DNA from: Naegleria gruberi
Lineage: Eukaryota
Reading direction: 5' to 3' (one strand)
Assembly: GCA_000004985.1 (NCBI GenBank)
Contig: GG738914.1
Length of the DNA: 64,000 bases
Position numbers and translations under genes: made by a program. Under the pieces are notes generated by a model. The model made no database searches and was not told the DNA's origin. It saw nothing but the letters and a program-made list of their open reading frames with translations. Positions 9,703-64,000 of this stretch are shown here, piece by piece; the first letter of the stretch is position 1, and every line of letters starts with the position of its first letter.

Positions 9703-12700
9703 TTACAATTCATCTTCTTCAATTTCGATTTCTTCTGTAACAAGGGCAATATCCTTAGGTTTTGGTTCTCGTTTTTGGTAGTGATCATAGGAGGTGGCAG
9801 CACTGTAAGATCTTGGGCTGTCAATGGAAGATTCTTCATCAGTCATTGTGGAATCATTTCTGTTTCTTCCTCCTCTTGGTGACATAGCAATTCTTGAACT
9901 GAGTCTTGACAATGTATTATTGTAAATTTCCACATCCAAATTGTGAGATAATTCCATTTCCTTATCTTGTTTTTCTAGTTTGTCTGTGATCTTGGAAGCT
10001 TTGGAAGTGGTAAACTTTCTTTTAACTTTACCACCTTTTTGTTTAGCCAATCTAATCTTCTTTTTGATACGTCTCAAGTTTACCAATCCTTCCATAATAT
10101 CTCTAATATTCTTACTATTATCCTCATCACTAGAATCAGAATCAGATTCAAAGAGAGTCAAATTAAATTCTACCTTTCTCTTTGAAGTGTTCATTCTAGC
10201 ATAAGCGTCAACATCATCTGGAATAAAGAGTGGATTCTCTTCAACTACCCAATCATCATGGAATTCTTCATAACTATCACATAATGGATTCTCAATAATA
10301 TTCCACTTTTCTTGTGCTTCCTCATCTTCCAATAGTACAACCTTAGTCATTTGAGTTAACGGATTACCAAATAGTTTGGAATATAATGCTTGGAGTGACT
10401 TGGCCTTTTCTTTACCGTACTTTCGTTCCAATTCTCTTCTGGCCAATCTTTCCTTCTTTCTGTCCTTCTTTCTTCTGACATAGATATCATAAATAAGCAT
10501 TCCCAAAACAAGCACTATAGATACTACAATAACAATGGAGGCAATCCATTCACAAAAACCACGCAGGGTTTCATTTCCTTTCCAAGCACCATCATCAACC
10601 AAGAAAAGTAAACCAAAGAACAAAACCAATTCAGTACACACTAGAGAAACCCATTCGAGGAGATTGTGGAATTTGGTCTTGAATGGCACAAACTGTGATT
10701 GCAACAGGAAAGCAATGAATACAGTAATCAGAGCAAAGGTAACAGTTTGAAGAGGAAGTAAGAAGGTGTTGAAGATGGAGAGAAGCAACTTTCTGAAGGT
10801 AATAATAATTTCCCAATAGAAGAGTCTCTTCTTGAATCTGTTTTGGATAAATTTGAATCTCAAATCGAAATCTTTAACTTTCTGTAACAAGACAGGATTC
10901 TTTGGCTTCCATTTGAGTTCGTCCAATTCAGTCTTTGTCAAATCTGGGTTGTGTATCAACAAATCCTTTCTAACTTCCAACTTCAAATGTTTCTTATAAA
11001 TATAGAGCGAGAGGAAGAACAAGATTGAACCGAGACCAAACACGACAAAGTAAATAATAGCTAGAGGTAACATGGCAATCCACTGAGGATCCAAAATACT
11101 GATATCTGGACTCGATACAAGTGCACAAGTATTGTCAGGTTGAGGTGTACAATAGAAAATGTCACTGGCTTGTGAAATGATAAAAGCAAAGGTAAAACTG
11201 AGGAACGCAGTGTAGCCATTGATCAATTGATTGAAGAATACTTTCATTTGTTTGGCGCTCATCTTTTCCTTAAGAAGCCAAACTAAGAAGTTTCGTAACC
11301 AAACAAACAAATTGATAAACCAAATCTTCCAATCATTGAGATTTTCAATGATCCTTCTCTTCAATCTTTGTTTCTTGTTGAGCTTCTTTTCTTCTTCCTT
11401 CTTTTTCAAGTATTCCACTTCATCAATATCGTTGTGATATCTGTACGGTTCACGATATTCAAATTTCACGTGATGTCCAAACTTGCTAACAATAACATTT
11501 CTCAAAATTCCCAAAATATACAACAGCACAAACAGTACAAATACATAAACTGGGAAGAGTGAGGTCAGATACCATTTGGTTAGTTGGTTAATGTCTGGGA
11601 AAATACACTTTGGATTGATAAAGTCAGTATTGAAAAGTGTTGCAGAACTGGCCGTATAGGAATATTCCATTACAACAGGCCACTTGACGTTATATTTGGT
11701 GAACATGGCAACAACTTGGAAGAATGACAGTGCAATAGAAATAGAAGCCAAATGTGAAAGTTTGATACTACTGATCAATAAGAAAATTAAAACTACAACC
11801 AACATGAGTATACCAAATCCAATCAATCTCCAGATAGCATCGTCTCCACATTTAGTACAGAAACCATTGAATTTGTAATAACCAACATCACAAGCTCCAC
11901 ATTTTCCTGATATATATCCAACTGTACAATTTTCAATTGAAAAACCACCACAAGCTTCAATAGGAAGACAACTGTAAACAGTGTAATTGTCATGTTTTCC
12001 CATCCAGTAACCTTTCTTTGGATATGGATGTATGTTGTTTCCAGCGTTACAAATCATAGATTGCTCATTACATTTTACGCAATAGTCATCCAACTTCTTT
12101 GGGCTGGGATTGAGATAATAATTATTTTGACAAATACATTCAGTGAGTGAGGTAGAGGCCTTTTGAAGTGTTAAAGTGTTTACCGGACAAGAAATACATT
12201 CCTTGGCTTGGAAAGATGATGAATAAGTATTAAAATCACATGGAATACAAGCATTACTGTCATTGATTGGTTTGTAGAAACCTGGCTTACATTCTTGACA
12301 TACATCTCTGTAAGAGGAAGCTCCGTAACCAGCCATACATGGAACGTATTCAAACATTGATTTGGCATCACTGGAAAGTTGTAGAGCATTGGTGTTTGAT
12401 GAGCCATTCTTAAATGCAGCATATGTGAATCCTTCTCCATTCAAAGAATACCACTCTCTTCTATTCACAGATAAGGAAATACTTGTCAAACCTTTCTCTC
12501 TCTTTGGAGCTATACACATGATAATATTTTCACTCATCACAGTACAAACATCTGTTGAAATAACAGTTCCAAACATTGCCCTAATCTCTACAGTTGCCAA
12601 TTTTGAAATATTAACTACTTGTGTAATACCCTCAACTTGGAGAGTAACTGGAATGTCATCATAGGTCCAAGTCTTCTTTGGATTGACGTTTAAAACTTTC

Positions 12701-15700
12701 AATCTATCATAAATGTATAAATTATATGAATTACTATACTCTGATCGAGAATTATATAATTGCACATAGAAGGAAGTATCTGCAGAGGTTATAATCTGAG
12801 AAGGAATTTCACAATTGATCTCAGAGGAAACTGAAGTTAATACTTTGGCTACTCTAACAATTTGGTTACTAATACTAAATTGACAACCAACAGCAGCGCC
12901 AAGATTCTCACCTACAATTGTTACACTTGTTGGTATGTTTCTTTCAAGGAGGTATGGTTGAACATTGATAATACGTGGCTCGTCATATTTGCTCTTAATC
13001 AAGATTGGCAAGGAGAATGTATCAATTCCATTGAATGTAACAGTAAATGTTGTTGCAAATGGGAATTCTAATATGGAATAATCAGGAAGTGTATTATTCA
13101 ATGGTGGATAGAGAATGAAAAGTGAAGAGTCCACACATGTGAAAATATCACTTGTTGACAATCCAGAACCTTGATAGAAATTAATAATATTCTGCAAAGA
13201 AAGAGTCAGGGATGAGAATGATGAGCTTGTGGCAATTGTGAATTGCAAATTATTGGTATTGCCACAAGGCAATGCTTGACTAAAGTGTAACATTAAACTG
13301 TTTGGTACAATTGTAAGGATTTGATTCGTCTGAACAAAATCAGGTGTAATATTATCAATACTTGTCAGTTGTCCACCTGAACTGTAAGTTAAAGAGTTTA
13401 CAGTATTGAAGGATGAACCAGAATCAAATGACAATAATAAATCGTAGGAACCAGAAGGTGCATTTCCAGGATTACTCAATTCTACATAGGTTGAGGTAAC
13501 AGAGACCGGTGAGAGTCCTATTTCTTGACCTAAAATAGCTCTTCTTGTAGATTTGAGTTGAAGTTTACCTTGAATCTGTGAGATTACCAATACACTTGAA
13601 AAACTTCCATAAACTTTGATAGTAGGTGTTGATGAAAATACTAAGCTTGGAGAAATGCTGCTGAATGTTGGCATTGGAATTACATTGACAGTTAATGAAC
13701 CTGCTTGGATTGGCTTTTGTTGAGAATAAACAACCACAGAATAAGTTCCTGTTGTAGATGGAGCACTATCAAGACAAAAATCAAGACCACTAATAGAGCA
13801 TGAAGTTAGCCAAGTATCTTGTTTGTTGATTCTCAAGGATACTTGTAAAGGTAGCAATGGAGAATCAACTGAAACACCACTGATTGATACCTTAATTGCT
13901 GATCCAGAAATTGCCTGAGTTGGAGAGATGCTTATTGATGCCAAAACAGCAAAATCTAAATGCAAATTGAAATCTCCAAACGAGTAACCATTATCTAAAG
14001 ATAATTGGAAAGGTATTCTCTTTGGTAGTTGTCCTCCAAATAAGTAAGTGAGTGGAACAGTTGTGAATGTAATCTGATTAGTATTTTGGTTGTAGGTACC
14101 ATCAAGAACTTTGCTATTGATATTATCATTGAGCTTGATCTTTGGTTGTGTATTTCTTGGTAAACCAAGGACATTGATACTGACCAAAGTGGCAGAATAA
14201 ACATCAACTGTTGCAGGAGAGGCAGAACCAATAGATCCAGACCATGAATAAATTTCAACAGTTTGACTGAGAGTAATGTACGAGCTGAAATCATCAAAAC
14301 TAAAATCAACAAATAAGAATCCAGGATTGCTTGACAAGATTGTTGGCAAAGGACAATCAACTTGTGTGGCTGACTTTTTAACACAACCATTTGTTCCTTC
14401 ACTCACCACTAATTGGCTGACTGAACTTCTGTACTTGACAGCAAATGTAACGAGTCTACTGTCAAGAGTAGAAGCAAATGCTATGGACAAAGTACCAGAG
14501 TTTGATGTCTTGCTGGCATCAATAATACTTGGAGAAATACTGGAAACAGCTGAAGGTTTGATTGCTGTGAATAGCGAGATCAGTGTCATACTTGGGAAAC
14601 CATCAATGTAGAGAACGACATAGTACTGCTTGGATGTGCTACTCACTTGTGATTGAACATTTGGTGTAAGGCAGTTCAAGAATTTACCTGAGCTTGTGAG
14701 CAATTGGCAATTTTGGAGTGGTGTCATTATCTTCTTATTGTCAATGAATAATAATGTGAATGAGTATTGACTCATCCAATTACTATTTCCACCATGATTT
14801 ATGGATTTAATGGTGTCAAACATATTTGAATAGGTGAGTGTAACATTTTGTCCTCCATACACTGTGCCGTAAGGTAAACTCAATGGGAATCCAACATCCA
14901 AAACTAATATTTTCTTAATATCAGTAATAAAATTACTGGTTCCATCTATTACTAATTGTACAGAGCTAAATCCCGACTTGGTAGTTTTAGCAAGTTTGCA
15001 TTTAACAACAGTGGATGATATAATGATAGCACTAGTTTGATATGATGTACCGTCATTATCATTTTTAACATAGCAATTGAATGAATATGTAGTATTGAGT
15101 GAATATTTTGACAAGTAAATTGTAATGTAACTATAATCTCTAATACTAATGTCTGAAGTGGTCAGTACAAATGGACTGATCTTTTGAACTGTCAATAAAT
15201 CATAAACTACCAAGGAGTAGGTTTCTACTTGGGTGTTAGATTGAGAAATTTCCTTGTTAGCCACATTCATATAGAAGGAAGTAACAAATGGAACAGATTT
15301 CTTTGGTATGTAATTGGTTGGTGGCGAAAGATTATCAACTGGGCCAACATAAGGTGCCACAAAGTATGGTGCTGAGCTTTGGTCAATTCCAGATAAGATG
15401 GAAACGGATTCATCCTTCATCTGAACTGATATTTGCAAATTCTGTGGACTGAAATCGTAAGGAATAACAAATGTTCCATTGTTGAATACCGAAGCAGCGA
15501 CCATATCCATATTATTTCTGTTTGCAATTGGAGTAGGAACTGGCAACACTGGAATCTTCTTGGCATTTGTTAAGTATTGATAGTTTGAACTTTGATCTGG
15601 AATTCCAAGACGAAGTTCTAACATTTTGTTAACCTTACTAACAGCAGTATCTGTGGAAAAGACACAACTCAAAATATCACTTCCAACAATCTTTGTTACG

Positions 15701-18700
15701 AAAGTGCTAGCCACTACAGATCCATCAAGAGTCAACACGCATTTAACAATGCCTGTTTCCACTACGTCAATGGTGGAAACTGAAACTTGGAAGTCTGGAA
15801 TTGTGTTTACAAGTTGATCATTAATTGTCCACAAGTATGGATTAGTAAAGGATATTGTTTTGACAGTTTCAAAGTAAAGAGCAAATTGGTTACTTGTAAT
15901 CTTGAAAGGAACAGATACAGCTCTGGTAATAGCATAAATATCAAAGAATGTCTTTCTACTACCAGTCAATGAAGGACATGTAACCACATTACCAACCACA
16001 AAGGCATCAACTGCAGTTAGAGCAGATGCTGAACTAATAGCACATTTGTAAACAATATTTTCCATAGAGCCGAACGAATTCAAAGATACCTGAACAGTTT
16101 GAGGAGTATTGAGAGTAAATTGTGGAGTGACTGTGGCAACGCTATAGGTATTTTCGAAATATAAAGTAACTGGAGAGGAGGTAATTGAAGTTTCAGAACC
16201 ATTAGCATAATAGAACAAATCAGCAGATACAGAACCAACCTGTGAATAAGTAATAGAGCAAGTAATTTGATCAACAGTGCTAGATAAAGCTGTAACTGTA
16301 GCTTTGTAAAGTGTAGTTGAAATTTTACAATAAAGATTATTCTTCACAATTGCAGATGGTACAACCAAAGATCCATAATTTAACACAAATGAAACAGATG
16401 AAACAGAATTAACCAGTAAAATATCGGATTGACCACTGGCAATACTGAATGGTATTTTTTTCAATACTTGGAAATTTCCCTTGTTGGCTGTAATATCCAG
16501 AGTGAATGGGAAATTATTTGCTAACAAGTATTTAGTTGACACAGAAACTCTATAGTTACCAGAGTTAGAAAATGTAAATGATGAAGACGAAGAGGTGACG
16601 CCTTGAACTAGATTGTATGGAATATTATTTTCCAATTTCAAATTAAACTCATTATCAAATACAGTGGTAAGATTTGAGTTTGGTCCAAGTGTTAATGAAG
16701 AGGAAAATAATGTAATTACTGATGAAGCAACGCCAACAGTATCGATTACAAACGGTGGATTGACTTGTATAATGTCCACTGGTGAGTAGGGAACAATAGG
16801 AAGGGACAATACCTTTGGTACGGTTTTGATTTCCAAGTTATACTGATAGTACGGCTTGATAATACTGCTAGATCTTAAATCTGGTATTATGCATGAATAG
16901 GTTTGGAATGCAATGAGAGAACAAGTGAAAGCTCTTGTTGGTTCATCAACAAAGCTAACTGAAACGCTAGATTGATCTATGAAGTCAGAGTAGAGTGTAG
17001 CAGTTGTTCCACCAGAATACAGAGCAGTTGTTGGACTCAAGAATGATCCACCAATGACGTTAATAGTAGCATAGGTATTGGTAATGGAAAAATATGGTTT
17101 TCCCTGAAGACTCAAACCAATAGAAAGTTGATATATTCCTGAGTAGTGTTCTATTTCTGTGCAATTGAATACACCTTCGTTGATGATTTTTGCAGGGAAT
17201 ACTCTATTCAAACTTTGGTCTGATACTGAATTCCACACACAACCAAAAGAAGCTTCTCCAAAGTTAGATGATGTATTGAATGCTGTTGTGATAACAATTG
17301 AGAATTGTTTGGATGTTTGAACGCTATACATGGAAACAGATTGTATGTTAACTGTTGGAACTACTGTTAACTCTTGGTCGGTATTCGCAGATAGTACGGA
17401 TTGGAATGTTTTGGAAATTGCTTGTACATTCTCAAAGTAATTGATACTCAAAGTAAGTTTACCATAAATGTTTGAATTTGGAATAAAGGCACAATTAATA
17501 GAAGTCTTTTGAGCTACGGTTATTGTTCCCAAAACATATCCATTTGCATTAGATAGCATACAATAAACTAAATTGTTTGCAATAAGACTGTATGGAATTG
17601 TTTGATTAAAACTGACAGGTACAGAAAAGGAACCACTAACTGCAAACAGATTTGATCCTCCAGTAACTGAAACATTACCCTTTTGTAAATAGTAAACCTC
17701 AGAACTGAGTTTGGTTACCTGCAAAGGAGCTGAGTCGAGTAACAAGTTAGTTACATTGAAGAATGATGCAAATTGGACAACTCCAGCATTAACCTTGGAG
17801 GAAATCATTGGATCCAAATCACACAACAAAAAGTCAGGAGTACTGATAGTTTGACCTTTTGTGAATGGAGCATTTGACAGGGTCATATTTACATCTTTAG
17901 ATGTTAAACACTTCCAATCAATACCTAACAATGAGTCATAGCTATTATGGAATGACAAATAAACTTGTGGACTATTTGACACAGTATCTGATGTAATAAC
18001 TTTTGGATAAACATTGTCAACATTCACAGTTTGATAAGCAACAATCTTGAAACTCAGTGTTGTGAGAGGTTCCTTATAGTTAACACCAGCAATTGTGAAT
18101 GAGGAATAAAGGGTTGCTGTTATGGTCTGAATAGTTTTGGAGAATGAAATAGTTCCAGTAGTGATGGTACAGACAATACGATAGGTGGTCTTTGCAATAT
18201 TGCAACCAATCTCACGATTAGTTCCCTCAAAATTCAAACGTAAGCTGTATGTAAGGAAAGAAGTTTCGGATGGTAATGACATAAAGCTATCCTTGGAAAT
18301 AATCTTGAAAGAAATGGTAGGTAATTGAGTCGATTCAATATAATTTGGAGTTGGTTTGATTGTATCAAAAGGTAGTTTGAGTGGAGTTTTAGAAATATCC
18401 AATTGGAACGTTTTGGATGTTGTGGTATCCTTTGTCATTTCTAAAGTTATATTCCTTTCTGATGGACTGTTGATTCCTGTGAAGAGTGTGGATCTTGAAG
18501 ATATTTCACATCTAACCATATCATCTGAGAGAATTGTAGAATCGTAAAGAGTACTGCCAATTCTGCACTTGTACTGGATATTGGTTCTTCTTGTAGCATC
18601 AAAAGTCACTCCCAAAAATACGTATTTGAGATCAGTTGTGTCAGTTGCATAATCCAAGATAGAAGGGAAAGACTCTGCGATACTCAAATATTTGGTTACA

Positions 18701-21700
18701 AAATAGAATGATGTAGAAACAGCAATAATATCAGTTTGCATAGACCCATACGTGATGGAAATACTTGGTGAAATCAGCATTGGTGAATATTTGCCTTGTG
18801 CGTATGGTATTGAAGGATTGTACTGAATTGTCATTTGGCAATTAGAGTCAATTACTATTGGGAAAGTTGAAACTAGAATTTTGTCTTCATAATTTTTGAG
18901 TGTTGCACTTTGAATAGCCAAACAATTGAATTTGGCCTTATTTAGCTTGAAATTGTTAATTGTAAACGATTGGGTACTTTGCACAAAGAGCGCACCACTG
19001 GAATCCAAAGTGTCAATAGTAATGGAGTCACTGGCTATTGGCAATAAATAAGATGAAGTAATAGGTATTCTAGAAATTCCATTAAATACATAAATTCCAA
19101 AATCAGCATAGAAAATTCCATTTTCCAAAACTGGATTATTCAATGTAATATCAATGCTACACACAAAAGTTGATAAAGCAGGAGAATATGTAGCAGTAAA
19201 GAATTGTCCATTCAAGAGGCAGTAATAATTCCAAGTTGCTTCTAAAGTATTATTCTTTGTTGTTTGTACGGATAGTTGCCCACTAACACGACCTGCAATT
19301 GACTGAAGAATATTAGGTGAAGTGGTAATTATACTTTCCTTTACACCATGATAGTAAACAACATTATAAATTGGAATTGACTTGGTCATAACACTTTCCT
19401 TCACTCTAATAACAACTGAGTTTTGTCTTGGAGATGTTACTGGAGGGAATGAAACAGTACAATTGAGAGAATTACCATTAAACGAAGCACTTGAAATACT
19501 TCCATCTACGGAAACACAAGAGTACGAATATTGGGCACCAGAGAATTTGAATTTGAGATAAATTGACAATGTAGAAGAGCCAACATCATTAGTAACAAAA
19601 AATGGTGAACCAATAACATTAGTTGAACTAATCATATCAAAACCAAGTGACTTTCCAACACGGTAGGTTCCTATGTTTTGTCTGGATGCTGTTCTTCCCT
19701 TATATTTGAGCTCCAATACGTAGGAACCAGCATCTGTTGCATTGATATTGCCACACGTTACCAGAGAGCTGGTTTGAGAAACAGCTTGAATACTCTGTAC
19801 ATTAGCACTGAATTGATTGAGAGTACCATCAGAGGTAGCCAAACATTGAAAATTAGATACATTAGAAGGCAACACATTTTGAATAAGCAAGCTGAATATC
19901 AACCCACTAGATGATCCAGTATTTTCAATAGTGAAACTAGGATACTGATATGAAATAGTTGCATCGCTGTTAAGAACAATGAAATCCAAAGAATAATCCA
20001 ATATTTTGGCCTTAATTATTCCAAAACTATTTGATAGCAATCCTGCAGGAATTGGAGCCACTACCCTAGTTGGATATCCTGGATAGGCAGTGTAATATGA
20101 GAGTGCTGTCCATGAAGAGCCTAAAAGCAAGTAGACTTGGCTTCTCAAAGAAAAAGGCAAGTCATACTTGATTTCTACTGAATCAGAGTCACTAGAAGGC
20201 ATTATATTGCTATCAGATCTGAGTTTCAAATCACCCACATAGGTATTAGTGAAATTGAACAGTGAAAAAGTTGCTGATTGTCTATCTTTGTAAGCCAATG
20301 TGAGATTTCCATTGTTGCTAATATTCATAGCTGTTGAATTGAATGAGAAAGTACAATTAAAAGTGATATCAAATACATTTTCATCAGTATCAGAAGTTAC
20401 TCGAGAGGCATAAAGGAATACTCCCTTAAATGATACTGAAGATGAACTGGTTCTGTAAATACAATGTAAAGCATTTTGGTAAGTGGTAATACTAACTGAA
20501 GTAGCATCGAATTTTGATCTAACAGTAAACTGAAGAGTGGAATTATTTGGATCTATGATAGCATACAAGTTATCTGGAAACTTTGAAGTCACCTGAGAGG
20601 GTGATGGAACTCCAAGTTCACAATTTCTTCCAGTTCTCAAATTTAAACAAGCACAATCGTTGGTTACAGGTGTACCAGAAATGAAACACGAACAATATCC
20701 GAAATCACCACAAATACCTCTTCCTGAACATGCATTTTCGTCTTTCTCAAGCAGTCCATAACAAATTTTCTGGTCACAGAATTGGCCACCGAAAAAAGTG
20801 TTTGTACAGACGCACACATCTTTTGCAACACAATTACCTCTAAGATTGCAAACAGTTCCATCAATGGAGAGAATACCATTACAAGTAGTGAATTTACACG
20901 CATTATCGGCAGGGTCATTATAAAAATTAGGGTTACAAACACAAAGATTGTCACCAGGGAGCTTTTCTGTTCCAGGAACAACAGTACAGTTACCATTAAC
21001 ACATCCATTAATCATACCATGACAATAAACATCTTGGCAATAATTACCACCAAACTTGTAACCATACTGGCATGTGCACTTCTCTGGTTCATTACAGCTA
21101 CCTCTTCCATTACACACTAAAGGATCATCAAATGGCAATCCACCACACATTCTTTTACAAGTAGATCCTCCATATCCAGTATCACAAAATTCACAATTAG
21201 TGCCATAAGAATGAGGAGTAGTACAGGAGCAAGTATCAAACGAAACACATGAGCCTCTCCCTGAGCAAACACTAGAATTCTTACCAGATACGCCAAAGCA
21301 AAAGGTACTTGGTGTAGCTAGTATTCCAATTTCGTTATCAGTTAACACTCTGTCGAAAATAACAAATTCGTCGATTGCTCCAGTCACCTTATCGAGGAAG
21401 AATGTTACATTTCCTGATCCTGGAGATCTCAAATTTCCAATAGTGAGAGTACCATTTGGTGGAATTTTTTGGCCCTTCTTGTAATCCAGTTTGAAATCCT
21501 TCAATGTTCCATCAATATAGAGTTTGAGAAGTCCACTATCAGAACTCCAAGATACTGCAACATGACGCCAAGTTTTACTATTGATGTTTACAGTTGTATC
21601 CCATGAATTAGAGGCAGTAAACAAATATCTCAATACGTGTGGTTCATTAATAGAAACTTTCAAGCTTCGATAGTCAGTAAGAACGAATCCAAAATATGTA

Positions 21701-21747
21701 TTATTTACTTGATACGCGAATGGTGCACCTTGCTCCAAATGATTACC
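9703..21747 (-). CDS. exon 3 of 3 (4,014 codons) of a giant (~4,490 aa) membrane protein. It carries the C-half of a laminin-G/pentraxin-like domain, EGF-like Cys repeats, a very long Ser/Thr-rich beta-rich region, a Cys-rich ephrin-receptor/furin-like module, a C-terminal multi-pass TM domain (about 8-10 helices) and an acidic cytoplasmic tail.
   Basis: Single uninterrupted 12-kb frame. The N-terminal part of this exon (…WRHVAVSW…LYIDGTL…IDEFVIFDRVLTDNEI) matches the LamG/ConA-like jelly-roll fold. Many C-x-C-x-G-(Y/F) EGF-like units follow. Then CQECKPGFYKPINDSNACIPCDFNTYSS…, then hydrophobic helices (…LIGFGILMLVVVLIFLLI…, …WIAMLPLAIIYFVVFGLGSILFFLSLYIY…, …IASIVIVVSIVLVLGMLIY…). The track ORF starts at a TTG three codons inside the exon. 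Confidence 0.8.
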   Translation of the reverse strand, partial: GNHLEQGAPFAYQVNNTYFGFVLTDYRSLKVSINEPHVLRYLFTASNSWDTTVNINSKTWRHVAVSWSSDSGLLKLYIDGTLKDFKLDYKKGQKIPPNGTLTIGNLRSPGSGNVTFFLDKVTGAIDEFVIFDRVLTDNEIGILATPSTFCFGVSGKNSSVCSGRGSCVSFDTCSCTTPHSYGTNCEFCDTGYGGSTCKRMCGGLPFDDPLVCNGRGSCNEPEKCTCQYGYKFGGNYCQDVYCHGMINGCVNGNCTVVPGTEKLPGDNLCVCNPNFYNDPADNACKFTTCNGILSIDGTVCNLRGNCVAKDVCVCTNTFFGGQFCDQKICYGLLEKDENACSGRGICGDFGYCSCFISGTPVTNDCACLNLRTGRNCELGVPSPSQVTSKFPDNLYAIIDPNNSTLQFTVRSKFDATSVSITTYQNALHCIYRTSSSSVSFKGVFLYASRVTSDTDENVFDITFNCTFSFNSTAMNISNNGNLTLAYKDRQSATFSLFNFTNTYVGDLKLRSDSNIMPSSDSDSVEIKYDLPFSLRSQVYLLLGSSWTALSYYTAYPGYPTRVVAPIPAGLLSNSFGIIKAKILDYSLDFIVLNSDATISYQYPSFTIENTGSSSGLIFSLLIQNVLPSNVSNFQCLATSDGTLNQFSANVQSIQAVSQTSSLVTCGNINATDAGSYVLELKYKGRTASRQNIGTYRVGKSLGFDMISSTNVIGSPFFVTNDVGSSTLSIYLKFKFSGAQYSYSCVSVDGSISSASFNGNSLNCTVSFPPVTSPRQNSVVIRVKESVMTKSIPIYNVVYYHGVKESIITTSPNILQSIAGRVSGQLSVQTTKNNTLEATWNYYCLLNGQFFTATYSPALSTFVCSIDITLNNPVLENGIFYADFGIYVFNGISRIPITSSYLLPIASDSITIDTLDSSGALFVQSTQSFTINNFKLNKAKFNCLAIQSATLKNYEDKILVSTFPIVIDSNCQMTIQYNPSIPYAQGKYSPMLISPSISITYGSMQTDIIAVSTSFYFVTKYLSIAESFPSILDYATDTTDLKYVFLGVTFDATRRTNIQYKCRIGSTLYDSTILSDDMVRCEISSRSTLFTGINSPSERNITLEMTKDTTTSKTFQLDISKTPLKLPFDTIKPTPNYIESTQLPTISFKIISKDSFMSLPSETSFLTYSLRLNFEGTNREIGCNIAKTTYRIVCTITTGTISFSKTIQTITATLYSSFTIAGVNYKEPLTTLSFKIVAYQTVNVDNVYPKVITSDTVSNSPQVYLSFHNSYDSLLGIDWKCLTSKDVNMTLSNAPFTKGQTISTPDFLLCDLDPMISSKVNAGVVQFASFFNVTNLLLDSAPLQVTKLSSEVYYLQKGNVSVTGGSNLFAVSGSFSVPVSFNQTIPYSLIANNLVYCMLSNANGYVLGTITVAQKTSINCAFIPNSNIYGKLTLSINYFENVQAISKTFQSVLSANTDQELTVVPTVNIQSVSMYSVQTSKQFSIVITTAFNTSSNFGEASFGCVWNSVSDQSLNRVFPAKIINEGVFNCTEIEHYSGIYQLSIGLSLQGKPYFSITNTYATINVIGGSFLSPTTALYSGGTTATLYSDFIDQSSVSVSFVDEPTRAFTCSLIAFQTYSCIIPDLRSSSIIKPYYQYNLEIKTVPKVLSLPIVPYSPVDIIQVNPPFVIDTVGVASSVITLFSSSLTLGPNSNLTTVFDNEFNLKLENNIPYNLVQGVTSSSSSFTFSNSGNYRVSVSTKYLLANNFPFTLDITANKGNFQVLKKIPFSIASGQSDILLVNSVSSVSFVLNYGSLVVPSAIVKNNLYCKISTTLYKATVTALSSTVDQITCSITYSQVGSVSADLFYYANGSETSITSSPVTLYFENTYSVATVTPQFTLNTPQTVQVSLNSFGSMENIVYKCAISSASALTAVDAFVVGNVVTCPSLTGSRKTFFDIYAITRAVSVPFKITSNQFALYFETVKTISFTNPYLWTINDQLVNTIPDFQVSVSTIDVVETGIVKCVLTLDGSVVASTFVTKIVGSDILSCVFSTDTAVSKVNKMLELRLGIPDQSSNYQYLTNAKKIPVLPVPTPIANRNNMDMVAASVFNNGTFVIPYDFSPQNLQISVQMKDESVSILSGIDQSSAPYFVAPYVGPVDNLSPPTNYIPKKSVPFVTSFYMNVANKEISQSNTQVETYSLVVYDLLTVQKISPFVLTTSDISIRDYSYITIYLSKYSLNTTYSFNCYVKNDNDGTSYQTSAIIISSTVVKCKLAKTTKSGFSSVQLVIDGTSNFITDIKKILVLDVGFPLSLPYGTVYGGQNVTLTYSNMFDTIKSINHGGNSNWMSQYSFTLLFIDNKKIMTPLQNCQLLTSSGKFLNCLTPNVQSQVSSTSKQYYVVLYIDGFPSMTLISLFTAIKPSAVSSISPSIIDASKTSNSGTLSIAFASTLDSRLVTFAVKYRSSVSQLVVSEGTNGCVKKSATQVDCPLPTILSSNPGFLFVDFSFDDFSSYITLSQTVEIYSWSGSIGSASPATVDVYSATLVSINVLGLPRNTQPKIKLNDNINSKVLDGTYNQNTNQITFTTVPLTYLFGGQLPKRIPFQLSLDNGYSFGDFNLHLDFAVLASISISPTQAISGSAIKVSISGVSVDSPLLPLQVSLRINKQDTWLTSCSISGLDFCLDSAPSTTGTYSVVVYSQQKPIQAGSLTVNVIPMPTFSSISPSLVFSSTPTIKVYGSFSSVLVISQIQGKLQLKSTRRAILGQEIGLSPVSVTSTYVELSNPGNAPSGSYDLLLSFDSGSSFNTVNSLTYSSGGQLTSIDNITPDFVQTNQILTIVPNSLMLHFSQALPCGNTNNLQFTIATSSSFSSLTLSLQNIINFYQGSGLSTSDIFTCVDSSLFILYPPLNNTLPDYSILEFPFATTFTVTFNGIDTFSLPILIKSKYDEPRIINVQPYLLERNIPTSVTIVGENLGAAVGCQFSISNQIVRVAKVLTSVSSEINCEIPSQIITSADTSFYVQLYNSRSEYSNSYNLYIYDRLKVLNVNPKKTWTYDDIPVTLQVEGITQVVNISKLATVEIRAMFGTVISTDVCTVMSENIIMCIAPKREKGLTSISLSVNRREWYSLNGEGFTYAAFKNGSSNTNALQLSSDAKSMFEYVPCMAGYGASSYRDVCQECKPGFYKPINDSNACIPCDFNTYSSSFQAKECISCPVNTLTLQKASTSLTECICQNNYYLNPSPKKLDDYCVKCNEQSMICNAGNNIHPYPKKGYWMGKHDNYTVYSCLPIEACGGFSIENCTVGYISGKCGACDVGYYKFNGFCTKCGDDAIWRLIGFGILMLVVVLIFLLISSIKLSHLASISIALSFFQVVAMFTKYNVKWPVVMEYSYTASSATLFNTDFINPKCIFPDINQLTKWYLTSLFPVYVFVLFVLLYILGILRNVIVSKFGHHVKFEYREPYRYHNDIDEVEYLKKKEEEKKLNKKQRLKRRIIENLNDWKIWFINLFVWLRNFLVWLLKEKMSAKQMKVFFNQLINGYTAFLSFTFAFIISQASDIFYCTPQPDNTCALVSSPDISILDPQWIAMLPLAIIYFVVFGLGSILFFLSLYIYKKHLKLEVRKDLLIHNPDLTKTELDELKWKPKNPVLLQKVKDFDLRFKFIQNRFKKRLFYWEIIITFRKLLLSIFNTFLLPLQTVTFALITVFIAFLLQSQFVPFKTKFHNLLEWVSLVCTELVLFFGLLFLVDDGAWKGNETLRGFCEWIASIVIVVSIVLVLGMLIYDIYVRRKKDRKKERLARRELERKYGKEKAKSLQALYSKLFGNPLTQMTKVVLLEDEEAQEKWNIIENPLCDSYEEFHDDWVVEENPLFIPDDVDAYARMNTSKRKVEFNLTLFESDSDSSDEDNSKNIRDIMEGLVNLRRIKKKIRLAKQKGGKVKRKFTTSKASKITDKLEKQDKEMELSHNLDVEIYNNTLSRLSSRIAMSPRGGRNRNDSTMTDEESSIDSPRSYSAATSYDHYQKREPKPKDIALVTEEIEIEEDEL

Positions 21748-21793
21748 CTATATTATTAAATATAAACAATAAAAGAATTATTGTAAAACATAC

Positions 21794-22830
21794 CTCTGAT
21801 TCAGAAAGCAACCAAAATGCAACAGTGACTTTAGTGGAAGGAAATGGAAAATTGAGTACATCAGCTCTGGAACTCGATTCTGGTCCAAATTCAAGAGCTT
21901 TTCCAGATGCACCTGTGATATAATTCACAGAACCAACAGTATTCACTGCATTACCTCCACACATATCTGAAAATTGATTATTAGCAATATCTGTACTAAT
22001 ATAAAATTTACATCCTCCATACTGTGTTGGTGTTGGATAGGCAATCTCTACATTTTTCAAATGTTGAATAGTATTATTACAAAAAGGTCCATAATATGGT
22101 GAAAAACAAGAACATCCCTCGTTCAATGATAAACATACTCCATTTCCACTACACTCATCGGTTCCACTGCATGTAGCAGTATAAAGCAATAGAACATTCT
22201 TTGGTGTTTGAGATAGAGTTGAATTGATTGTTTGATAATGTAAAGTTGAATTATAACCAAGAGCAAGATAGGATTTATCTCCAGTTTGCTGTCTCAATAA
22301 GTTATATTCCAAACTTCCAACAGGAGGTAACTTGATTGAATTACTGTATCCAATAAATGTATCATAATCTCCACCATTATTACATTTGCTATTATAAATG
22401 GATGAAATTCTGGAAGCTCCAGCAAAATCTACAGAATTTGCCTTTGCAACCTTCTGACAACCATCTGGAGTGGTGTAAAAGTAATCAGCCAAAACCAAGC
22501 CAGAACTAATAAAACTGAAATTCTTTGCATTGACAAACACATCTCTAGCTGACAAGTAACCAGCTGTACTAGCTGTTTGATAATTAGATGATCTAAACAG
22601 TTCACTCGTTGAAATAAAATTGAATGGCTCACTAATGGCCTTTAAATTAGCATCTGTATAGTATGAACCATTGTACGAGCCAAGATAAGGACTCTGATCA
22701 TAGAAACTCAATCTCAAACGAAAGTAAGGTCTCGTTCCAACTGTTCCACAATTAATATCGGACGATGGATAGGAAGGAGGAACTACGAGAGTGGGATTGC
22801 TGAGTGAAAGAACATTCTTCTCATATCGAT
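21794..22830 (-). CDS. exon 2 of 3 of the giant gene (about 345 codons, includes an EGF-like unit and the N-half of the LamG-like domain)
   Basis: A 46-nt intron (21748..21793, GTATGT…ATATAG, phase 0) joins …VTVAFWLLSES to GNHLEQGAPFAYQ… in frame and completes a LamG-like domain. The 5' side is joined to exon 1 by a 111-nt phase-1 intron (22831..22941, GTATGT…CATCAG). There is no ATG near the ORF 5' end. Confidence 0.7.
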
Positions 22831-22941
22831 CTGATGATGAAAATCATAATAAATTAAATATATTAAATTATAATCATAATTAATATTAAATATGTAAAGT
22901 ATTGTTGTTATATGTTAATTAATGTAAATAATAAAACATAC

Positions 22942-23326
22942 ATTTAGTGAGAGCTTCCATACATGTTTCTGGAATCTTATCCTTCAATATATATTGAGCA
23001 TTTACCATTAAAAAGAAGGAAGAAGAAGAATCCGACAATGATAAAACTGATGATGATGAATCTGTTGTTATTGCTGCTTGGAAGAGAGCAATTACCAAAA
23101 CTAACAACATGATCATCAGAAAGGCTAAAATACATGAAGACGAGAAAGAATAGCGAATTTTACCAAGCCTCTTTTGATCATCATTACTTTCATAAACACA
23201 TGTTGTTGATGATAATTTTGATCCGATTATATTGTTATGTTGAAGATGATCATGACGATGAGAAGCCTTTTCATTCTTCTTCTTTTTTAATAATTGTTTG
23301 TCGCTTCTTCTAGCTGTAACGGTCAT
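22942..23326 (-). CDS. exon 1 of 3 of the giant gene: cytoplasmic N-terminus plus signal-anchor helix
   Basis: ATG at 23326 (MTVTARRSDKQLLKKKK…) followed by SCILAFLMIMLLVLVIALFQAAI. The exon ends at an AAAT|GTATGT donor. The frame is continuous into exon 2 with the predicted phase. Confidence 0.55.
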
Positions 23327-44312: not shown

Positions 44313-45350
44313 TTAATGGAGATGCTTTTTACTTTGGTAGGAGTTTGACATGTTTCCAACAACCACATATGAAGCAAAGGCATCTCCCTGTGAAGGTGGA
44401 CACAATGACATGTTAGAATTCATTCTCATCAATCCCTCCTCCTCTTCCATATGACATCTTTGATGAGAAGGAGTTCTATTCGGAGAGTGTGTCTTCCTTA
44501 CTGTTTCACAAGGTGATGCTAATGAATCAATAGTAACATTGTTGTTATTGCATTCGAATTGTTCATGATGACATAGACAGTGTATCTTATTGGATTTAAA
44601 TCTTAGGATCGGAGAGAAATTGTTGTTCTTATTGTAATTGTTGGAGAGAGATGAAGGAAATTGAGCAGATTCTGGGAGTGTATTCTCATGGGGATTTAAT
44701 AAGGGTTCACATCTCTCTGATTGAATTCTTCTCAATTGAGCATGATGATCAAAGGATTTATGAGGGAAGGAAGAGGTGTTGTTTTCAAAAGCTTGTTTCT
44801 TTGAGGTTTCATGGGAAGGGAGAATGACTGGGTAGGATTGATTAGTTTCGTGAGTTTTCTTGTATTGGGAAGGACGAGAATTGGATTGATGAGAATGATT
44901 CAGGTTGGATTGTTGTCGATATTTGAGAAAGTTAGCTGAAATGCTAATCACATCATTTGTGCAAACACTTGAACTGACACAACTTTCATCTAGAGAACTG
45001 GTCAATGAGGAATTGACTGAATTGCAACTCTGAATTTCTTCTTCTTCCATTAAGGTGGAGCAATTACTCGAATTACAATAAACATCTTCACTGCGAGAGC
45101 TGGAGGAGAGATGAGTTGGAATGGAATTAAAGCTATCAATCATATGTTGTGGGTTTCTATTGTTGGGAGAGCTAGCTGATTTGGTAACATTTTGCTGGTG
45201 ATGATGAGATTGAGATGTTGTCGGGGATTGATACTTCTTATGATGGTGATGACTCGGTGTTGAATGCTTTCTTGTTTGGTTTGGTGATTTTTCTACGGCA
45301 ATCATTGAGGTAGAGATGGGAAGAATGGATAATGATTGTTTGGCTCCCAT
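44313..45350 (-). CDS. Ser/His/Asn-rich low-complexity protein beginning MGAKQS (N-myristoylation-type N-terminus)
   Basis: ATG at 45350. MGxxxS consensus. Most of the 345 aa are compositionally biased (S, H, N, Q, C). Confidence 0.6.
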   Translation of the reverse strand: MGAKQSLSILPISTSMIAVEKSPNQTRKHSTPSHHHHKKYQSPTTSQSHHHQQNVTKSASSPNNRNPQHMIDSFNSIPTHLSSSSRSEDVYCNSSNCSTLMEEEEIQSCNSVNSSLTSSLDESCVSSSVCTNDVISISANFLKYRQQSNLNHSHQSNSRPSQYKKTHETNQSYPVILPSHETSKKQAFENNTSSFPHKSFDHHAQLRRIQSERCEPLLNPHENTLPESAQFPSSLSNNYNKNNNFSPILRFKSNKIHCLCHHEQFECNNNNVTIDSLASPCETVRKTHSPNRTPSHQRCHMEEEEGLMRMNSNMSLCPPSQGDAFASYVVVGNMSNSYQSKKHLH

Positions 45351-63906: not shown

Positions 63907-64000
63907 TATTTTGATGAGTAATAATAGCACTGGCGTTACTAGTAGAATAATAATAATTATTTGGTTTTTCCTTTTCAATGTACAAATTAATTAGCAATTC

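What the first reader, a model, noticed from the sequence alone, without database searches (positions are those of the whole stretch)
9703..23326. A ~4,490-aa, three-exon surface protein: signal anchor, split LamG domain, EGF-like array, >3,000 aa Ser/Thr-rich beta region, Cys-rich module and C-terminal multi-pass domain
A 12-kb uninterrupted exon joins two upstream exons through 46-nt and 111-nt introns with matching phases. The smaller intron lies inside a laminin-G/pentraxin-like jelly-roll domain. The architecture is a huge modular ectodomain, then an ephrin-receptor/furin-like Cys-rich module, then 8-10 membrane helices and an acidic tail. This recalls polycystin-1-like or adhesion-receptor-like mechanosensory or adhesion proteins, but it matches no family I can name with certainty. 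The long Ser/Thr-rich stretch is probably heavily O-glycosylated. It is about a fifth of the window and the largest single-gene novelty here.
Basis: partly seen in the sequence, partly recalled or inferred. Interest (0 to 1): 0.62.

Follow-up and report, generated by a model that had tools for sequence, protein, structure and literature searches.

The report
Giant CRMP-like surface receptor of Naegleria
This is a real gene of the amoeba Naegleria gruberi, already in the databases but unnamed, that encodes a 4,488-residue surface protein whose long adhesive outer part sits on a nine-helix membrane core of the same family as the CRMP proteins malaria and Toxoplasma parasites need to invade cells.

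Summary
Three minus-strand exons (23326-22942, 22830-21794, 21747-9703), joined across 111-nt and 46-nt GTATGT...AG introns, give a stop-free 4,488-aa protein. It is identical to GenBank XP_002670576.1 (NAEGRDRAFT_81819, "predicted protein", Naegleria gruberi).

The interpretation needs correcting in two places.
- The "Ser/Thr-rich beta region" is not mucin-like. It is about 26 diverged IPT/TIG-like Ig-fold domains, each roughly 100 aa with a Cys pair.
- The C-terminal multi-pass region is one conserved domain of about 460 aa, most likely nine helices. It has 2,632 relatives in a 1.84-billion-protein library, always C-terminal and preceded by Cys-rich modules.

A profile of this domain matches the published Toxoplasma CRMPA and CRMPB "conserved cores" (hhalign 99.2% and 98.1%). 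More distant family members, and the family consensus, match Pfam PF06011 "TRP", the family annotated on fungal Flc1 and TrpR. No Pfam or fold evidence places it with polycystin-1 or adhesion GPCRs, and no solved structure shares the fold.

The best reading is a new, very large member of the CRMP-like receptor family: an adhesive head coupled to a possibly Ca2+-permeable nine-helix core. The function is inferred, not shown.

The parts
22942..23326 (-). Exon 1 (codons 1-128 plus one base). ATG at 23326. Basic N-terminus, then the hydrophobic leader.
   Evidence: There are in-frame stops upstream of the ATG. The end of the exon (NAxY...P.TC.EA.TK) is conserved in the N. lovaniensis orthologue.
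22831..22941 (-). Intron 1, 111 nt, GTATGT...CAG, phase 1.
   Evidence: Read-through hits a stop (ORF ends at 22919). The orthologue has a 27-aa insertion beginning CMYFQ at this exact point.
21794..22830 (-). Exon 2: N-terminal head domain, first EGF-like module and the first part of the LamG domain.
21748..21793 (-). Intron 2, 46 nt, GTATGT...TAG, phase 0, inside the LamG domain (between aa 474 and 475).
   Evidence: The orthologue reads continuously across the junction (FWMKSTNEGDHLEKG against FWLLSESEGNHLEQG).
9703..21747 (-). Exon 3, 12,045 nt including the stop codon at 9703-9705.
23069..23137 (-). Hydrophobic leader, aa 64-86. It could be a signal anchor or the core of a signal peptide.
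   Evidence: Hydropathy 3.13. In N. lovaniensis the equivalent segment is at aa ~20-40, directly before a conserved VNA|Y motif, which looks like a cleavable signal peptide. Unresolved.
22181..22830 (-). N-terminal head domain, aa ~129-345, with no recognisable family.
   Evidence: No Pfam hit at E<=1. No phmmer hit even to the orthologue, though the global alignment gives 32% identity.
22073..22171 (-). EGF-like module 1, aa 349-381.
   Evidence: DUF7949 24.7 bits and EGF_2 21.0 bits, both just under their cutoffs.
21328..21853 (-). Laminin-G / pentraxin-like jelly-roll domain, aa 455-614. The coordinates include intron 2.
   Evidence: Laminin_G_3 E 2.6e-14, 54.1 bits. Pentaxin 24.1 bits, under its cutoff. 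Present in the orthologue at 69.8 bits.
20575..21294 (-). EGF-like array, aa 626-865. The 300 residues 601-900 hold 34 Cys.
   Evidence: EGF_2 27.7 bits against a cutoff of 22.1, three stretches. Cys density. The orthologue hits EGF_2 and, below their cutoffs, teneurin-type EGF models.
12400..20574 (-). Array of about 26 IPT/TIG-like Ig-fold domains, aa 866-3590. Nineteen are recognised by a self-profile, and about seven more slots of the same length are too diverged to score.
   Evidence: Cys pairs at a period of about 100 aa. Self-HMM domains. Pfam TIG 20.1 bits against 20.9 on the repeat at aa 3399-3486. AF2 model pLDDT 76.9. Foldseek top hits are ANTXR2 Ig-like, CGTase domain D, Met and plexin IPT, CAMTA1 TIG and EBF3 IPT/TIG. 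No DNA-level tandem repeat.
11845..12372 (-). Cys-rich stalk, aa 3600-3775: Ephrin-receptor-like repeats plus the juxtamembrane C..GY.G..C..C..GYYK....C..C module (DUF7630-type).
   Evidence: Ephrin_rec_like 38.9 bits, two stretches. Invariant Cys columns in the family alignment. This module aligns to the DUF7630 region of TgCRMPA. 64% identical in the orthologue.
10474..11844 (-). Multi-pass core, aa 3776-4232, most likely nine TM helices with the N-terminus outside and the C-terminus in the cytosol. CRMP-core / PF06011-related.
   Evidence: 2,632 homologues, 737 with E<=1e-10. The domain is always C-terminal. Motifs. AF2 pLDDT 85.9, pTM 0.82. hhalign to TgCRMPA 99.2% and TgCRMPB 98.1%, with negative controls. 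PF06011 link. 75% identical in the orthologue.
9706..10473 (-). Cytoplasmic tail, aa 4233-4488. The proximal ~150 aa (10024-10473) are conserved and the distal Ser/acidic part is species-specific.
   Evidence: The tail matches 17 fetched proteins (self included), among them the orthologue and the N. gruberi paralogue D2VTD0. Shared motifs are W..xENPL (twice), EF.LPFY.SD plus an acidic Ser cluster, and a basic amphipathic helix.

Best explanation
The locus is one genuine three-exon gene of Naegleria gruberi (NAEGRDRAFT_81819) encoding a 4,488-aa membrane glycoprotein of the CRMP-like receptor family.

Shown here, from N- to C-terminus:
- an ER-targeting hydrophobic leader;
- a fast-evolving head of unknown fold;
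- one EGF-like module, a LamG/pentraxin-like lectin-type domain and an EGF array;
- a rod of about 26 IPT/TIG-like Ig-fold domains;
- an Ephrin-receptor-like / DUF7630-type Cys-rich stalk;
- a conserved multi-pass core and a conserved cytosolic tail.

The stalk plus core is homologous to the 'conserved core' of apicomplexan cysteine repeat modular proteins (CRMPA and CRMPB). Through more distant family members it links to Pfam PF06011, the domain annotated on fungal Flc1 and TrpR. The fungal literature groups those proteins with S. pombe Pkd2.

Inferred from sequence:
- The core most likely has nine TM helices with the ectodomain outside and the tail in the cytosol. The loops that carry conserved Cys have few or no Lys/Arg, and the alternating loops are rich in Lys/Arg.

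Inferred mechanism:
- The long ectodomain projects from the amoeba surface and binds prey, substrate or other cells through its head, LamG and EGF modules.
- Engagement or tension is passed through the rigid Cys-rich stalk to the TM core.
- The core converts this into an intracellular signal. A local Ca2+ flux is the most plausible form, by analogy with reconstituted S. pombe Pkd2. An alternative is recruitment of partners by the conserved tail.
- The signal triggers a local membrane response such as regulated secretion, adhesion or phagocytic-cup remodelling. This parallels the way the CRMP complex triggers rhoptry or mucocyst exocytosis on contact in Toxoplasma and Tetrahymena.
For: Gene model:
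-; exact identity to the GenBank protein; collinear orthologue supporting both junctions.

Domains:
-. IPT-like repeats.

The core is one conserved domain:
- An exhaustive HMMER search of 1.84e9 proteins found 2,632 hits at E<=1e-3, 737 at <=1e-10 and 60 at <=1e-30.
- 102 of the fetched proteins cover the whole domain, always at the C-terminus, in proteins of 489 to 5,394 aa.
- 17 columns are invariant, including 9 Cys, Q112, K421 and P456.

CRMP homology:
- hhalign of the family profile against the published TgCRMPA core gives prob 99.2%, E 6.9e-20, 360 columns. Against TgCRMPB it gives 98.1%, E 1.1e-13 (sequences from PMC9815656 S2 Table).
- hmmsearch gives 118 and 73 bits. Reversed and shuffled controls give E 0.03-0.5 or negative scores.

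PF06011 link:
- 14 of 29 family members hit it at E<=1, best 7.1e-10.
- Member P0119 scores 35.7 bits, above the 28.5 cutoff.
- The family consensus scores 48.4 bits, E 8e-13. The consensus of the Naegleria-like clade scores 25.0 bits, E 1.1e-5, over profile positions 148-418 of 426.
- The reversed consensus gives no hit.

Constraint pattern in the orthologue fits a conserved transducer under a diversifying ligand-binding part:
- TM core 75% identical, stalk 64%, ectodomain 32-41%.

The same layout, TIG array then Ephrin_rec_like then DUF7630 then core, recurs in unrelated family members P0103 and P0135.

Literature:
- CRMPs have nine TM helices, an extracellular N-terminus and a cytosolic C-terminus, and are needed for contact-triggered rhoptry or mucocyst exocytosis (PMC9670195, PMC9815656).
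- S. pombe Pkd2 has nine TM helices (bioRxiv 10.1101/2022.08.11.503631) and permeates Ca2+ when the membrane is stretched in vesicles (PMC9727806).
- PF06011 is the domain of fungal Flc1 and TrpR (PMC9600462, PMC8618638).
Against: - No functional datum exists for this protein or for any Naegleria relative.
- The protein itself, and each of the eight close relatives tested, does not hit PF06011. That link is therefore two-step, resting on distant members and on consensus sequences.
- TgCRMPA and TgCRMPB do not hit PF06011 individually either.
- I did not test S. pombe Pkd2 against PF06011. Its place in that family rests on the fungal literature.
- Channel activity has been reported only for fungal Pkd2, not for any CRMP-type protein. 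Yeast Flc proteins were first described as flavin carriers.
- Naegleria has no rhoptries or trichocysts, so the downstream response is a guess.
- The nine-helix count is my reading of the model's helices, hydropathy and loop charges. It was not produced by a topology predictor.
- It is unresolved whether the N-terminal hydrophobic segment is cleaved.
- The AFDB fold libraries were unavailable, so structural identity with the Pkd2, Flc or CRMP models could not be checked.
Confidence: 0.55

Rival explanations
1. It is a purely adhesive or structural surface protein, for example for cell-substrate or cell-prey adhesion or as a glycocalyx or cyst-surface component. On this view the multi-pass core is only a stable anchor or trafficking and oligomerisation module and carries no signal or flux.
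For: About 80% of the protein is adhesive-type modules: LamG, EGF and about 26 IPT-like domains. Ectodomains in the family are highly variable, with Kelch, RCC1, TIG, He_PIG and cadherin-like domains, as expected for adhesins. Singer et al. suggest that CRMPA and CRMPB may also act as escorters for other complex components (PMC9815656).
Against: A simple anchor would not need about 460 aa with invariant polar residues inside helices (Q112, K421, N463, the WE..RK motif) conserved from Heterolobosea to Apicomplexa. It would not be twice as conserved as the ectodomain (75% against 32-41%). The tail is also conserved among the closer relatives, including a same-genome paralogue.
Confidence: 0.22
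2. The core is a solute transporter rather than a receptor or channel. Yeast Flc proteins, for example, were originally proposed to carry flavins. The ectodomain would then regulate or localise transport.
Confidence: 0.1
3. It is a polycystin-1-like or adhesion-GPCR-like protein that signals through G proteins or a PKD2-type partner.
Confidence: 0.05
4. It is a gene-model artefact, with two or more neighbouring genes fused by the predictor or a wrong first exon.
For: The N-terminal 63 aa are not conserved in N. lovaniensis, and alternative starts at M70 or M72 exist. No transcript data were available here.
Against: A single 12-kb ORF runs from the LamG domain to the tail. The orthologue is collinear from the leader to the tail. 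Both junctions are supported comparatively. Other proteins in the family have a similar length with LamG at the N-terminal end and the core at the C-terminal end (P0009).
Confidence: 0.03

Closest known systems
Cysteine repeat modular proteins: Toxoplasma CRMPA/CRMPB, Plasmodium CRMP1-4, Tetrahymena CRMP1/2. Some members carry the PANTHER label 'G protein-coupled receptor-related'.
   Same: A Cys-rich EGF-like / Ephrin-receptor-like / DUF7630 stalk directly followed by a homologous multi-pass core and a cytosolic tail. Nine helices are reported for the Toxoplasma and Plasmodium CRMPs. The ectodomain is large, variable and adhesive, with the N-terminus outside and the C-terminus inside. Profile matches are 99.2% and 98.1%. 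Shared motifs are F..RF.FL..RF....F.WE.VI..RK and PF..K..N..E.
   Different: It comes from a different supergroup (Discoba, not Alveolata) and is not an orthologue of any named CRMP. The ectodomain differs: LamG, EGF and about 26 IPT-like domains, in place of the Kringle, MAR or C-type-lectin domains of CRMPs. Naegleria has no rhoptry or trichocyst system. No partner proteins or heterodimer are known. Function is untested.
Fungal 'TRP-like' family, Pfam PF06011: C. neoformans Flc1 and A. nidulans TrpR, which the fungal literature groups with S. cerevisiae Flc proteins and S. pombe Pkd2, Trp663 and Trp1322.
   Same: S. pombe Pkd2 has a leader, an extracellular domain, a nine-helix core of about 400 aa and a largely disordered cytosolic tail (bioRxiv 10.1101/2022.08.11.503631). 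This protein has the same layout, with a core that most likely also has nine helices. The family consensus hits PF06011 at 48.4 bits, and 14 of 29 members hit it.
   Different: This protein itself does not reach PF06011. It has no TRP_N / ML-like lipid-binding domain. It has the Cys-rich stalk and a giant ectodomain instead. Ca2+ permeation has been shown only for Pkd2 (PMC9727806).
IPT/TIG-array receptors: plexins, Met/Ron, fibrocystin (PKHD1), Dictyostelium Tgr proteins.
   Same: A long rod of IPT/TIG-type Ig-fold domains with a conserved Cys pair. The Foldseek top hits include Met and plexin IPT domains.
   Different: No Sema, PSI, G8 or PbH1 domains. The membrane part is multi-pass rather than single-pass. 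There is no kinase or GAP domain. The repeats are so diverged that Pfam TIG stays just under threshold on the best one.
Polycystin-1 and adhesion GPCRs.
   Same: A very large modular ectodomain fused to a multi-pass membrane domain, with a plausible contact-sensing or force-sensing role.
   Different: None of the defining domains (REJ, GAIN/GPS, PLAT, 7tm_2, PKD_channel) is present, and there is no fold match.

Membership tests
CRMP-like family (CRMP 'conserved core') | A C-terminal multi-pass core homologous in sequence to the TgCRMPA/B core. | tested here: met
   hhalign of the A2 profile against TgCRMPA gives 99.2%, E 6.9e-20, 360 columns. Against TgCRMPB it gives 98.1%, E 1.1e-13. hmmsearch gives 118 and 73 bits. 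Reversed and shuffled controls are negative.
CRMP-like family (CRMP 'conserved core') | EGF-like / Ephrin-receptor-like Cys-rich modules immediately before the first TM helix (Pfam DUF7630 type). | tested here: met
   Ephrin_rec_like 38.9 bits, two stretches. The juxtamembrane Cys are invariant across the family and align to the segment of TgCRMPA that scores 64.6 bits on DUF7630. This protein's own DUF7630 score is sub-threshold (17.6 bits). The family consensus scores 27.5 bits against a cutoff of 27.
CRMP-like family (CRMP 'conserved core') | Nine TM helices with the ectodomain outside and the C-terminus in the cytosol. | tested here: inconclusive
   The AF2 model has pLDDT 85.9. Its helices, together with hydropathy and loop charges, fit nine TM helices. 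Conserved Cys sit in the loops poor in K/R, and K/R-rich loops alternate with them. This is prediction only, and no topology predictor was run.
CRMP-like family (CRMP 'conserved core') | Orthology to an alveolate CRMP, heterodimerisation, and a requirement for regulated exocytosis. | not testable with these tools
   The organism is a heterolobosean. Only profile-level similarity to the apicomplexan proteins was found. No functional or interaction data exist.
Pfam PF06011 'TRP' (fungal Flc1 / TrpR family) | The protein scores above the curated gathering cutoff of 28.5 bits. | tested here: not met
   No PF06011 hit for this protein at E<=10, nor for its eight closest relatives tested; the best is 6.2 bits for P0012. 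Indirect link: 14 of 29 family members at E<=1, P0119 at 35.7 bits, family consensus at 48.4 bits, clade consensus at 25.0 bits.
Pfam PF06011 'TRP' (fungal Flc1 / TrpR family) | An N-terminal ML-like / TRP_N lipid-binding domain. | tested here: not met
   No TRP_N or ML hit anywhere in the protein.
Pfam PF06011 'TRP' (fungal Flc1 / TrpR family) | Ca2+ permeation or mechanosensitivity. | not testable with these tools
   Known only for reconstituted S. pombe Pkd2 (PMC9727806).
Polycystin-1 / PKD1-like | PKD repeats, REJ, GAIN/GPS, PLAT and an 11-TM region with a PKD_channel domain. | tested here: not met
Adhesion GPCR | A GAIN/GPS domain followed by a 7tm_2 bundle. | tested here: not met
IPT/TIG domain (Pfam PF01833, E-set Ig-like) | The repeats match the TIG profile or fold. 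| tested here: inconclusive
   The best repeat scores 20.1 bits against a cutoff of 20.9, and 2 of 19 repeats hit at E<=10. The Foldseek top hits for the modelled repeat are IPT/TIG and E-set domains, with TM-score 0.6-0.79 and E 3.6e-4 to 0.07. The fold is supported, but profile membership is borderline.

The most novel reading that the evidence does not exclude
CRMP-type receptors, including this Naegleria giant, would be one ancient pan-eukaryotic device: a variable adhesive ectodomain that gates an Flc/Pkd2-like nine-helix Ca2+-permeable core through its Cys-rich stalk. If so, contact would lead to Ca2+ entry and then to local exocytosis or cytoskeletal response, and this mechanism would predate the split of Discoba, Alveolata, Amoebozoa and Opisthokonta. 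That would give the unexplained trigger function of apicomplexan CRMPs a concrete, testable mechanism, namely ion flux. In the paper library searched here, no paper connects CRMPs with the PF06011 / Flc / Pkd2 family.
Probability: 0.25. Interest if true: 0.7.

Novelty: new member of a known kind. Interest (0 to 1): 0.36.

Why it matters
The gene itself is ordinary in one sense. It has been an annotated "predicted protein" since the N. gruberi genome was released.

What is useful is the classification.
- It shows that the CRMP core occurs in Heterolobosea, attached to very different ectodomains. [quoted passage not shown] Homologues were also found in Anaeramoeba, in Thecamonas and in marine protist transcriptomes.
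- It shows that the wider family reaches the Pfam PF06011 domain of fungal Flc1 and TrpR. The fungal literature groups those proteins with Pkd2, the one member shown to pass Ca2+ under membrane stretch.

If that link holds structurally, it suggests a direct experiment on how CRMPs trigger secretion: measure ion flux through the core.

For Naegleria biology, the protein is a candidate contact or adhesion sensor. The non-pathogenic N. lovaniensis, a close relative of the brain pathogen N. fowleri, has a clear orthologue. Whether N. fowleri has one was not established here.

Tried and rejected
1. The word-indexed homologue search (search for homologous proteins) was close to useless for this protein.
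   - The C-terminal query gave one weak Ephrin_rec_like hit.
   - The full-length query timed out.
   - The N-terminal 533 aa gave nothing.
   - A 17-sequence profile of TM6-TM9 gave one fragment.
2. PDB sequence searches found nothing meaningful with the repeat profile, the TM domain or the family profile. Only the Ephrin-receptor Cys-rich region matched, at E about 0.01.
4. The AFDB fold libraries (afdb50, afdb_sample) were not installed. The model could not be compared with AlphaFold models of Pkd2, Flc or CRMP.
5. The mucin-like, O-glycosylated reading of the long middle region was rejected.
6. No other gene in the window carries the core or the repeat.
7. The locus has no Rfam family and no DNA tandem repeat.
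8. The N-terminal head (aa 129-345) remains unassigned.
9. The literature searches found no paper linking CRMPs to Naegleria or to PF06011, channels or Flc.

Full report
**Observation**

The minus strand carries a 4,011-codon ORF at 9703..21738. Upstream of it lie two shorter coding blocks. Joining 23326-22942, 22830-21794 and 21747-9703 gives a 13,467-nt CDS with a single terminal stop, encoding 4,488 aa.

Both introns begin GTATGT and end AG. They are 111 nt (phase 1) and 46 nt (phase 0). Reading through either one hits a stop within a few codons, at the ORF ends 22919 and 21743.

The spliced product is exactly the GenBank protein XP_002670576.1 / EFC37832.1 (UniProt D2VZE7, NAEGRDRAFT_81819), "predicted protein [Naegleria gruberi]".

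No transcript data were available, but the N. lovaniensis orthologue gives comparative support (P0003 = XP_044550491.1, 4,303 aa).
- It is collinear over the whole length at 41% identity.
- It is continuous across junction 2.
- At junction 1 it has a 27-aa insertion starting CMYFQ. That is the translation of an unspliced in-frame GTATGT intron. The residues on either side, including the end of exon 1, are conserved.

Exon 1 therefore belongs to this gene. The locus holds no Rfam family and no DNA tandem repeat. The plus-strand ORFs inside it are all 112 aa or shorter.

**Anatomy of the ectodomain**

- **Leader.** Residues 1-63 are basic and are not conserved in the orthologue. Residues 64-86 are strongly hydrophobic. 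In N. lovaniensis the hydrophobic segment sits about 20 residues from the start, directly before a conserved VNA|Y motif. That looks like a cleavable signal peptide. In N. gruberi a 30-residue Ser-rich spacer intervenes, and M70 or M72 are possible alternative starts. Signal anchor against signal peptide is unresolved.
- **Head.** Residues ~129-345 match nothing: no Pfam hit at E<=1 and no phmmer hit even to the orthologue.
- **EGF-like module.** It lies at aa 349-381 and scores just under the Pfam cutoffs.
- **LamG.** A Laminin_G_3 / pentraxin-like domain lies at aa 455-614 (E 2.6e-14). It is split by the 46-nt intron between aa 474 and 475.
- **EGF array.** It spans aa 626-865 (EGF_2 27.7 bits, above the cutoff, three stretches).

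**The long middle region**

Residues 866-3590 are only mildly enriched in Ser and Thr. S+T is 24%, against 21% for the whole protein. There are five S/T runs of 4 or more residues, and 40-aa window entropy averages 3.6 bits.

The Cys positions come in pairs (C-x8-43-C) repeating about every 100 residues. A profile built from these windows finds 19 clear domains, at E 1e-8 to 1e-21. The gaps between them fit about seven more units.

Pairwise identity among the repeats is only 10-24%, and there is no repeat at the DNA level. The array is therefore old.

Evidence on the fold:
- The repeat at aa 3399-3486 scores 20.1 bits on Pfam TIG, against a cutoff of 20.9.
- An AF2 model of that repeat, using the 19 repeats as its alignment, is an eight-strand sandwich (pLDDT 76.9).
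- Its best PDB matches are the ANTXR2 Ig-like domain, CGTase domain D, Met and plexin IPT domains, CAMTA1 TIG and EBF3 IPT/TIG, with TM-score 0.6-0.79.

The region is therefore a rod of about 26 IPT/TIG-like domains, not a mucin. Heavy O-glycosylation is possible but nothing specific points to it. The ectodomain has 41 N-glycosylation sequons.

**The C-terminal module**

Residues 3600-3775 are Cys-rich (Ephrin_rec_like 38.9 bits, two stretches). Residues 3776-4232 hold the hydrophobic helices.

An exhaustive HMMER search with aa 3708-4252 against 1.84 billion representative proteins returned 2,632 hits at E<=1e-3, 737 at <=1e-10 and 60 at <=1e-30. In 102 of the fetched proteins the match covers the entire domain. 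It is always C-terminal, in proteins of 489 to 5,394 aa.

Named members:
- the N. lovaniensis orthologue;
- an N. gruberi paralogue (D2VTD0, 5,338 aa);
- many Anaeramoeba proteins, some labelled "G protein-coupled receptor-related";
- a Thecamonas trahens protein;
- MMETSP and EukProt transcripts.

The family alignment (A2, 29 sequences) has 17 invariant columns, nine of them Cys. Its motifs are:
- C..GY.G..C..C..GYYK....C..C just before TM1;
- SISIA.SF.Q;
- WP...FNFN.DF..PEC;
- F.CT.Q..G..TL.A.P.I.CY;
- F..RF.FL..RF....F.WE.VI..RKL;
- PF..K.HN..E.

The AF2 model is confident (pLDDT 85.9, pTM 0.82). I combined its helices with the positions of the conserved Cys loops, which have few or no Lys/Arg, and the alternating Lys/Arg-rich loops. 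This gives nine TM helices with the ectodomain outside and the tail in the cytosol. The helix count is my inference and was not produced by a topology predictor.

**What the module is**

The architecture matches what two papers describe for apicomplexan and ciliate CRMPs.
- They have EGF / Ephrin-receptor-like modules plus nine C-terminal TM helices, with the N-terminus outside and the C-terminus in the cytosol. They are essential for contact-triggered rhoptry or mucocyst exocytosis (PMC9670195; PMC9815656).
- Singer et al. define a "conserved core" of two EGF-like domains plus the TM domains, and note that the TM part resolves similarly in AlphaFold models of Dictyostelium homologues.

I took the TgCRMPA and TgCRMPB core sequences from their S2 Table and compared them with the A2 profile.
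- hhalign gives 99.2% (E 6.9e-20, 360 columns) for CRMPA and 98.1% (E 1.1e-13, 387 columns) for CRMPB.
- hmmsearch gives 118 and 73 bits.
- Reversed or shuffled CRMPA gives E 0.03-0.5. Block shuffles retain only the 24-residue WE..RK block.

The stalk plus core is thus homologous to the CRMP core.

**A further link**

When the 29 family cores were scanned one by one against Pfam, 14 hit PF06011 "TRP" at E<=1, with a best E of 7.1e-10. Seventeen hit DUF7630, the juxtamembrane Cys module.

- Member P0119 passes the curated PF06011 cutoff (35.7 bits against 28.5).
- The consensus sequence of the family scores 48.4 bits (E 8e-13) over profile positions 268-421 of 426.
- The consensus of the 12-member Naegleria-like clade scores 25.0 bits (E 1.1e-5) over positions 148-418.
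- TgCRMPA scores 64.6 bits on DUF7630.
- The reversed family consensus gives no PF06011 hit.

The protein itself and its eight closest relatives tested do not reach PF06011 on their own. The link is therefore indirect.

PF06011 is the domain of fungal Flc1 and of A. nidulans TrpR (PMC9600462, PMC8618638). The latter paper treats TrpR as a homologue of S. pombe Trp1322 and groups Pkd2 homologues with the FLC family. S. pombe Pkd2 has a signal peptide, an extracellular domain, a nine-helix TM domain and a cytosolic tail (bioRxiv 10.1101/2022.08.11.503631). It permeates Ca2+ when reconstituted membranes are stretched (PMC9727806). I did not test Pkd2 itself against PF06011.

Neither CRMP paper mentions channels, TRP or Flc. 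No paper in the library combines these terms in that sense.

**Constraint pattern and tail**

Between N. gruberi and N. lovaniensis the TM core is 75% identical and the Cys-rich stalk 64%. The ectodomain modules are 32-41% identical.

The first ~150 residues of the tail are conserved in the orthologue and in more than a dozen fetched relatives, including the same-genome paralogue. The shared features are two W..xENPL motifs, EF.LPFY.SD followed by an acidic Ser cluster, and a basic amphipathic helix. The last ~106 residues are specific to N. gruberi.

Family members carry quite different ectodomains, including Kelch propellers, RCC1 repeats, He_PIG, cadherin-like domains and strong TIG arrays. 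The stalk and core stay constant. This fits a conserved transducer under diversifying ligand-binding heads.

**Mechanism (inferred)**

The ectodomain projects from the cell surface and binds external ligands. Engagement or tension is passed through the disulfide-rich stalk to the TM core. The core signals inward, most plausibly by a local cation or Ca2+ flux, or by partner recruitment through the conserved tail. The result is a local membrane response.

The steps actually shown are the gene model, the domain composition, the unity and conservation of the core, and its homology to the CRMP core. The PF06011 relation is supported but indirect. Everything about ligand, flux and cellular output is inference by analogy with CRMPs and Pkd2.

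**Rivals**

- A purely adhesive role with the core as anchor is possible. It is disfavoured by the deep conservation of polar intramembrane residues.
- A carrier role, as in the Flc "flavin carrier" history, is possible.
- Membership in the polycystin-1 or adhesion-GPCR families failed its defining-feature tests.
- A gene-fusion artefact is unlikely.

**Novelty and score**

The gene is annotated but uncharacterised. It is a new and unusually large member of a known but poorly understood family, so I rate it "new member of a known kind".

Its interest lies in extending the CRMP core to Heterolobosea and in the possible bridge between CRMPs and the fungal PF06011 family that is grouped with Pkd2. 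Overall interest is 0.36. The most novel reading that the evidence does not exclude is that CRMP-type receptors are ectodomain-gated Flc/Pkd2-like channels. I give that about 0.25 probability.

Noticed in passing
window 44313-49601, minus strand: Three consecutive minus-strand ORFs (44313-45350, 45973-47058, 47490-49601) encode Ser-rich (about 19-20% Ser), low-complexity, probably disordered proteins. The one scanned against Pfam (47490-49601) has no hit. The block coincides with the strongest GC skew in the window (+0.2 to +0.27). They may be exons of one gene.
   Followed up: partly
window 50277-51941, minus strand: A 554-aa ORF made almost entirely of 13 DUF4116 repeats (480 bits).
   Followed up: no
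window 1471-3249 (-), 4463-6007 (+), 35596-37236 (+), 59302-61008 (-), 62467-63978 (-): The neighbouring genes are ordinary eukaryotic ones: an ankyrin plus LRR protein, a histone deacetylase, a C2-domain protein, an MBOAT acyltransferase and an NHL-repeat protein. None carries the CRMP-type core or the IPT-like repeat.
   Followed up: yes
P0003 (N. lovaniensis XP_044550491.1), aa ~64-90: The deposited orthologue has a 27-aa insertion (CMYFQILSISHNFLLFSVHLPISYLHT) exactly at the position of N. gruberi intron 1. It starts with the translation of GTATGT, so it is probably an unspliced 81-nt in-frame intron in that annotation.
   Followed up: partly
window 10024-10473 (aa 4233-4382): The cytosolic tail has a module shared with 16 other fetched proteins, including the N. 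gruberi paralogue D2VTD0. It consists of two W..xENPL motifs, EF.LPFY.SD plus an acidic Ser cluster, and a basic amphipathic helix. It looks like an undescribed docking or trafficking motif of the Naegleria-like clade.
   Followed up: partly
window 23138-23326 (aa 1-63): The basic N-terminal 63 residues have no counterpart in the orthologue. M70 or M72, at the start of the hydrophobic segment, could be the true start codon.
   Followed up: no
tool behaviour: The word-indexed homologue search missed the protein itself, its 76%-identical orthologue core and hundreds of relatives that the exhaustive HMMER search found. Empty results from that tool for giant or low-complexity eukaryotic proteins should not be read as absence.
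   Followed up: yes
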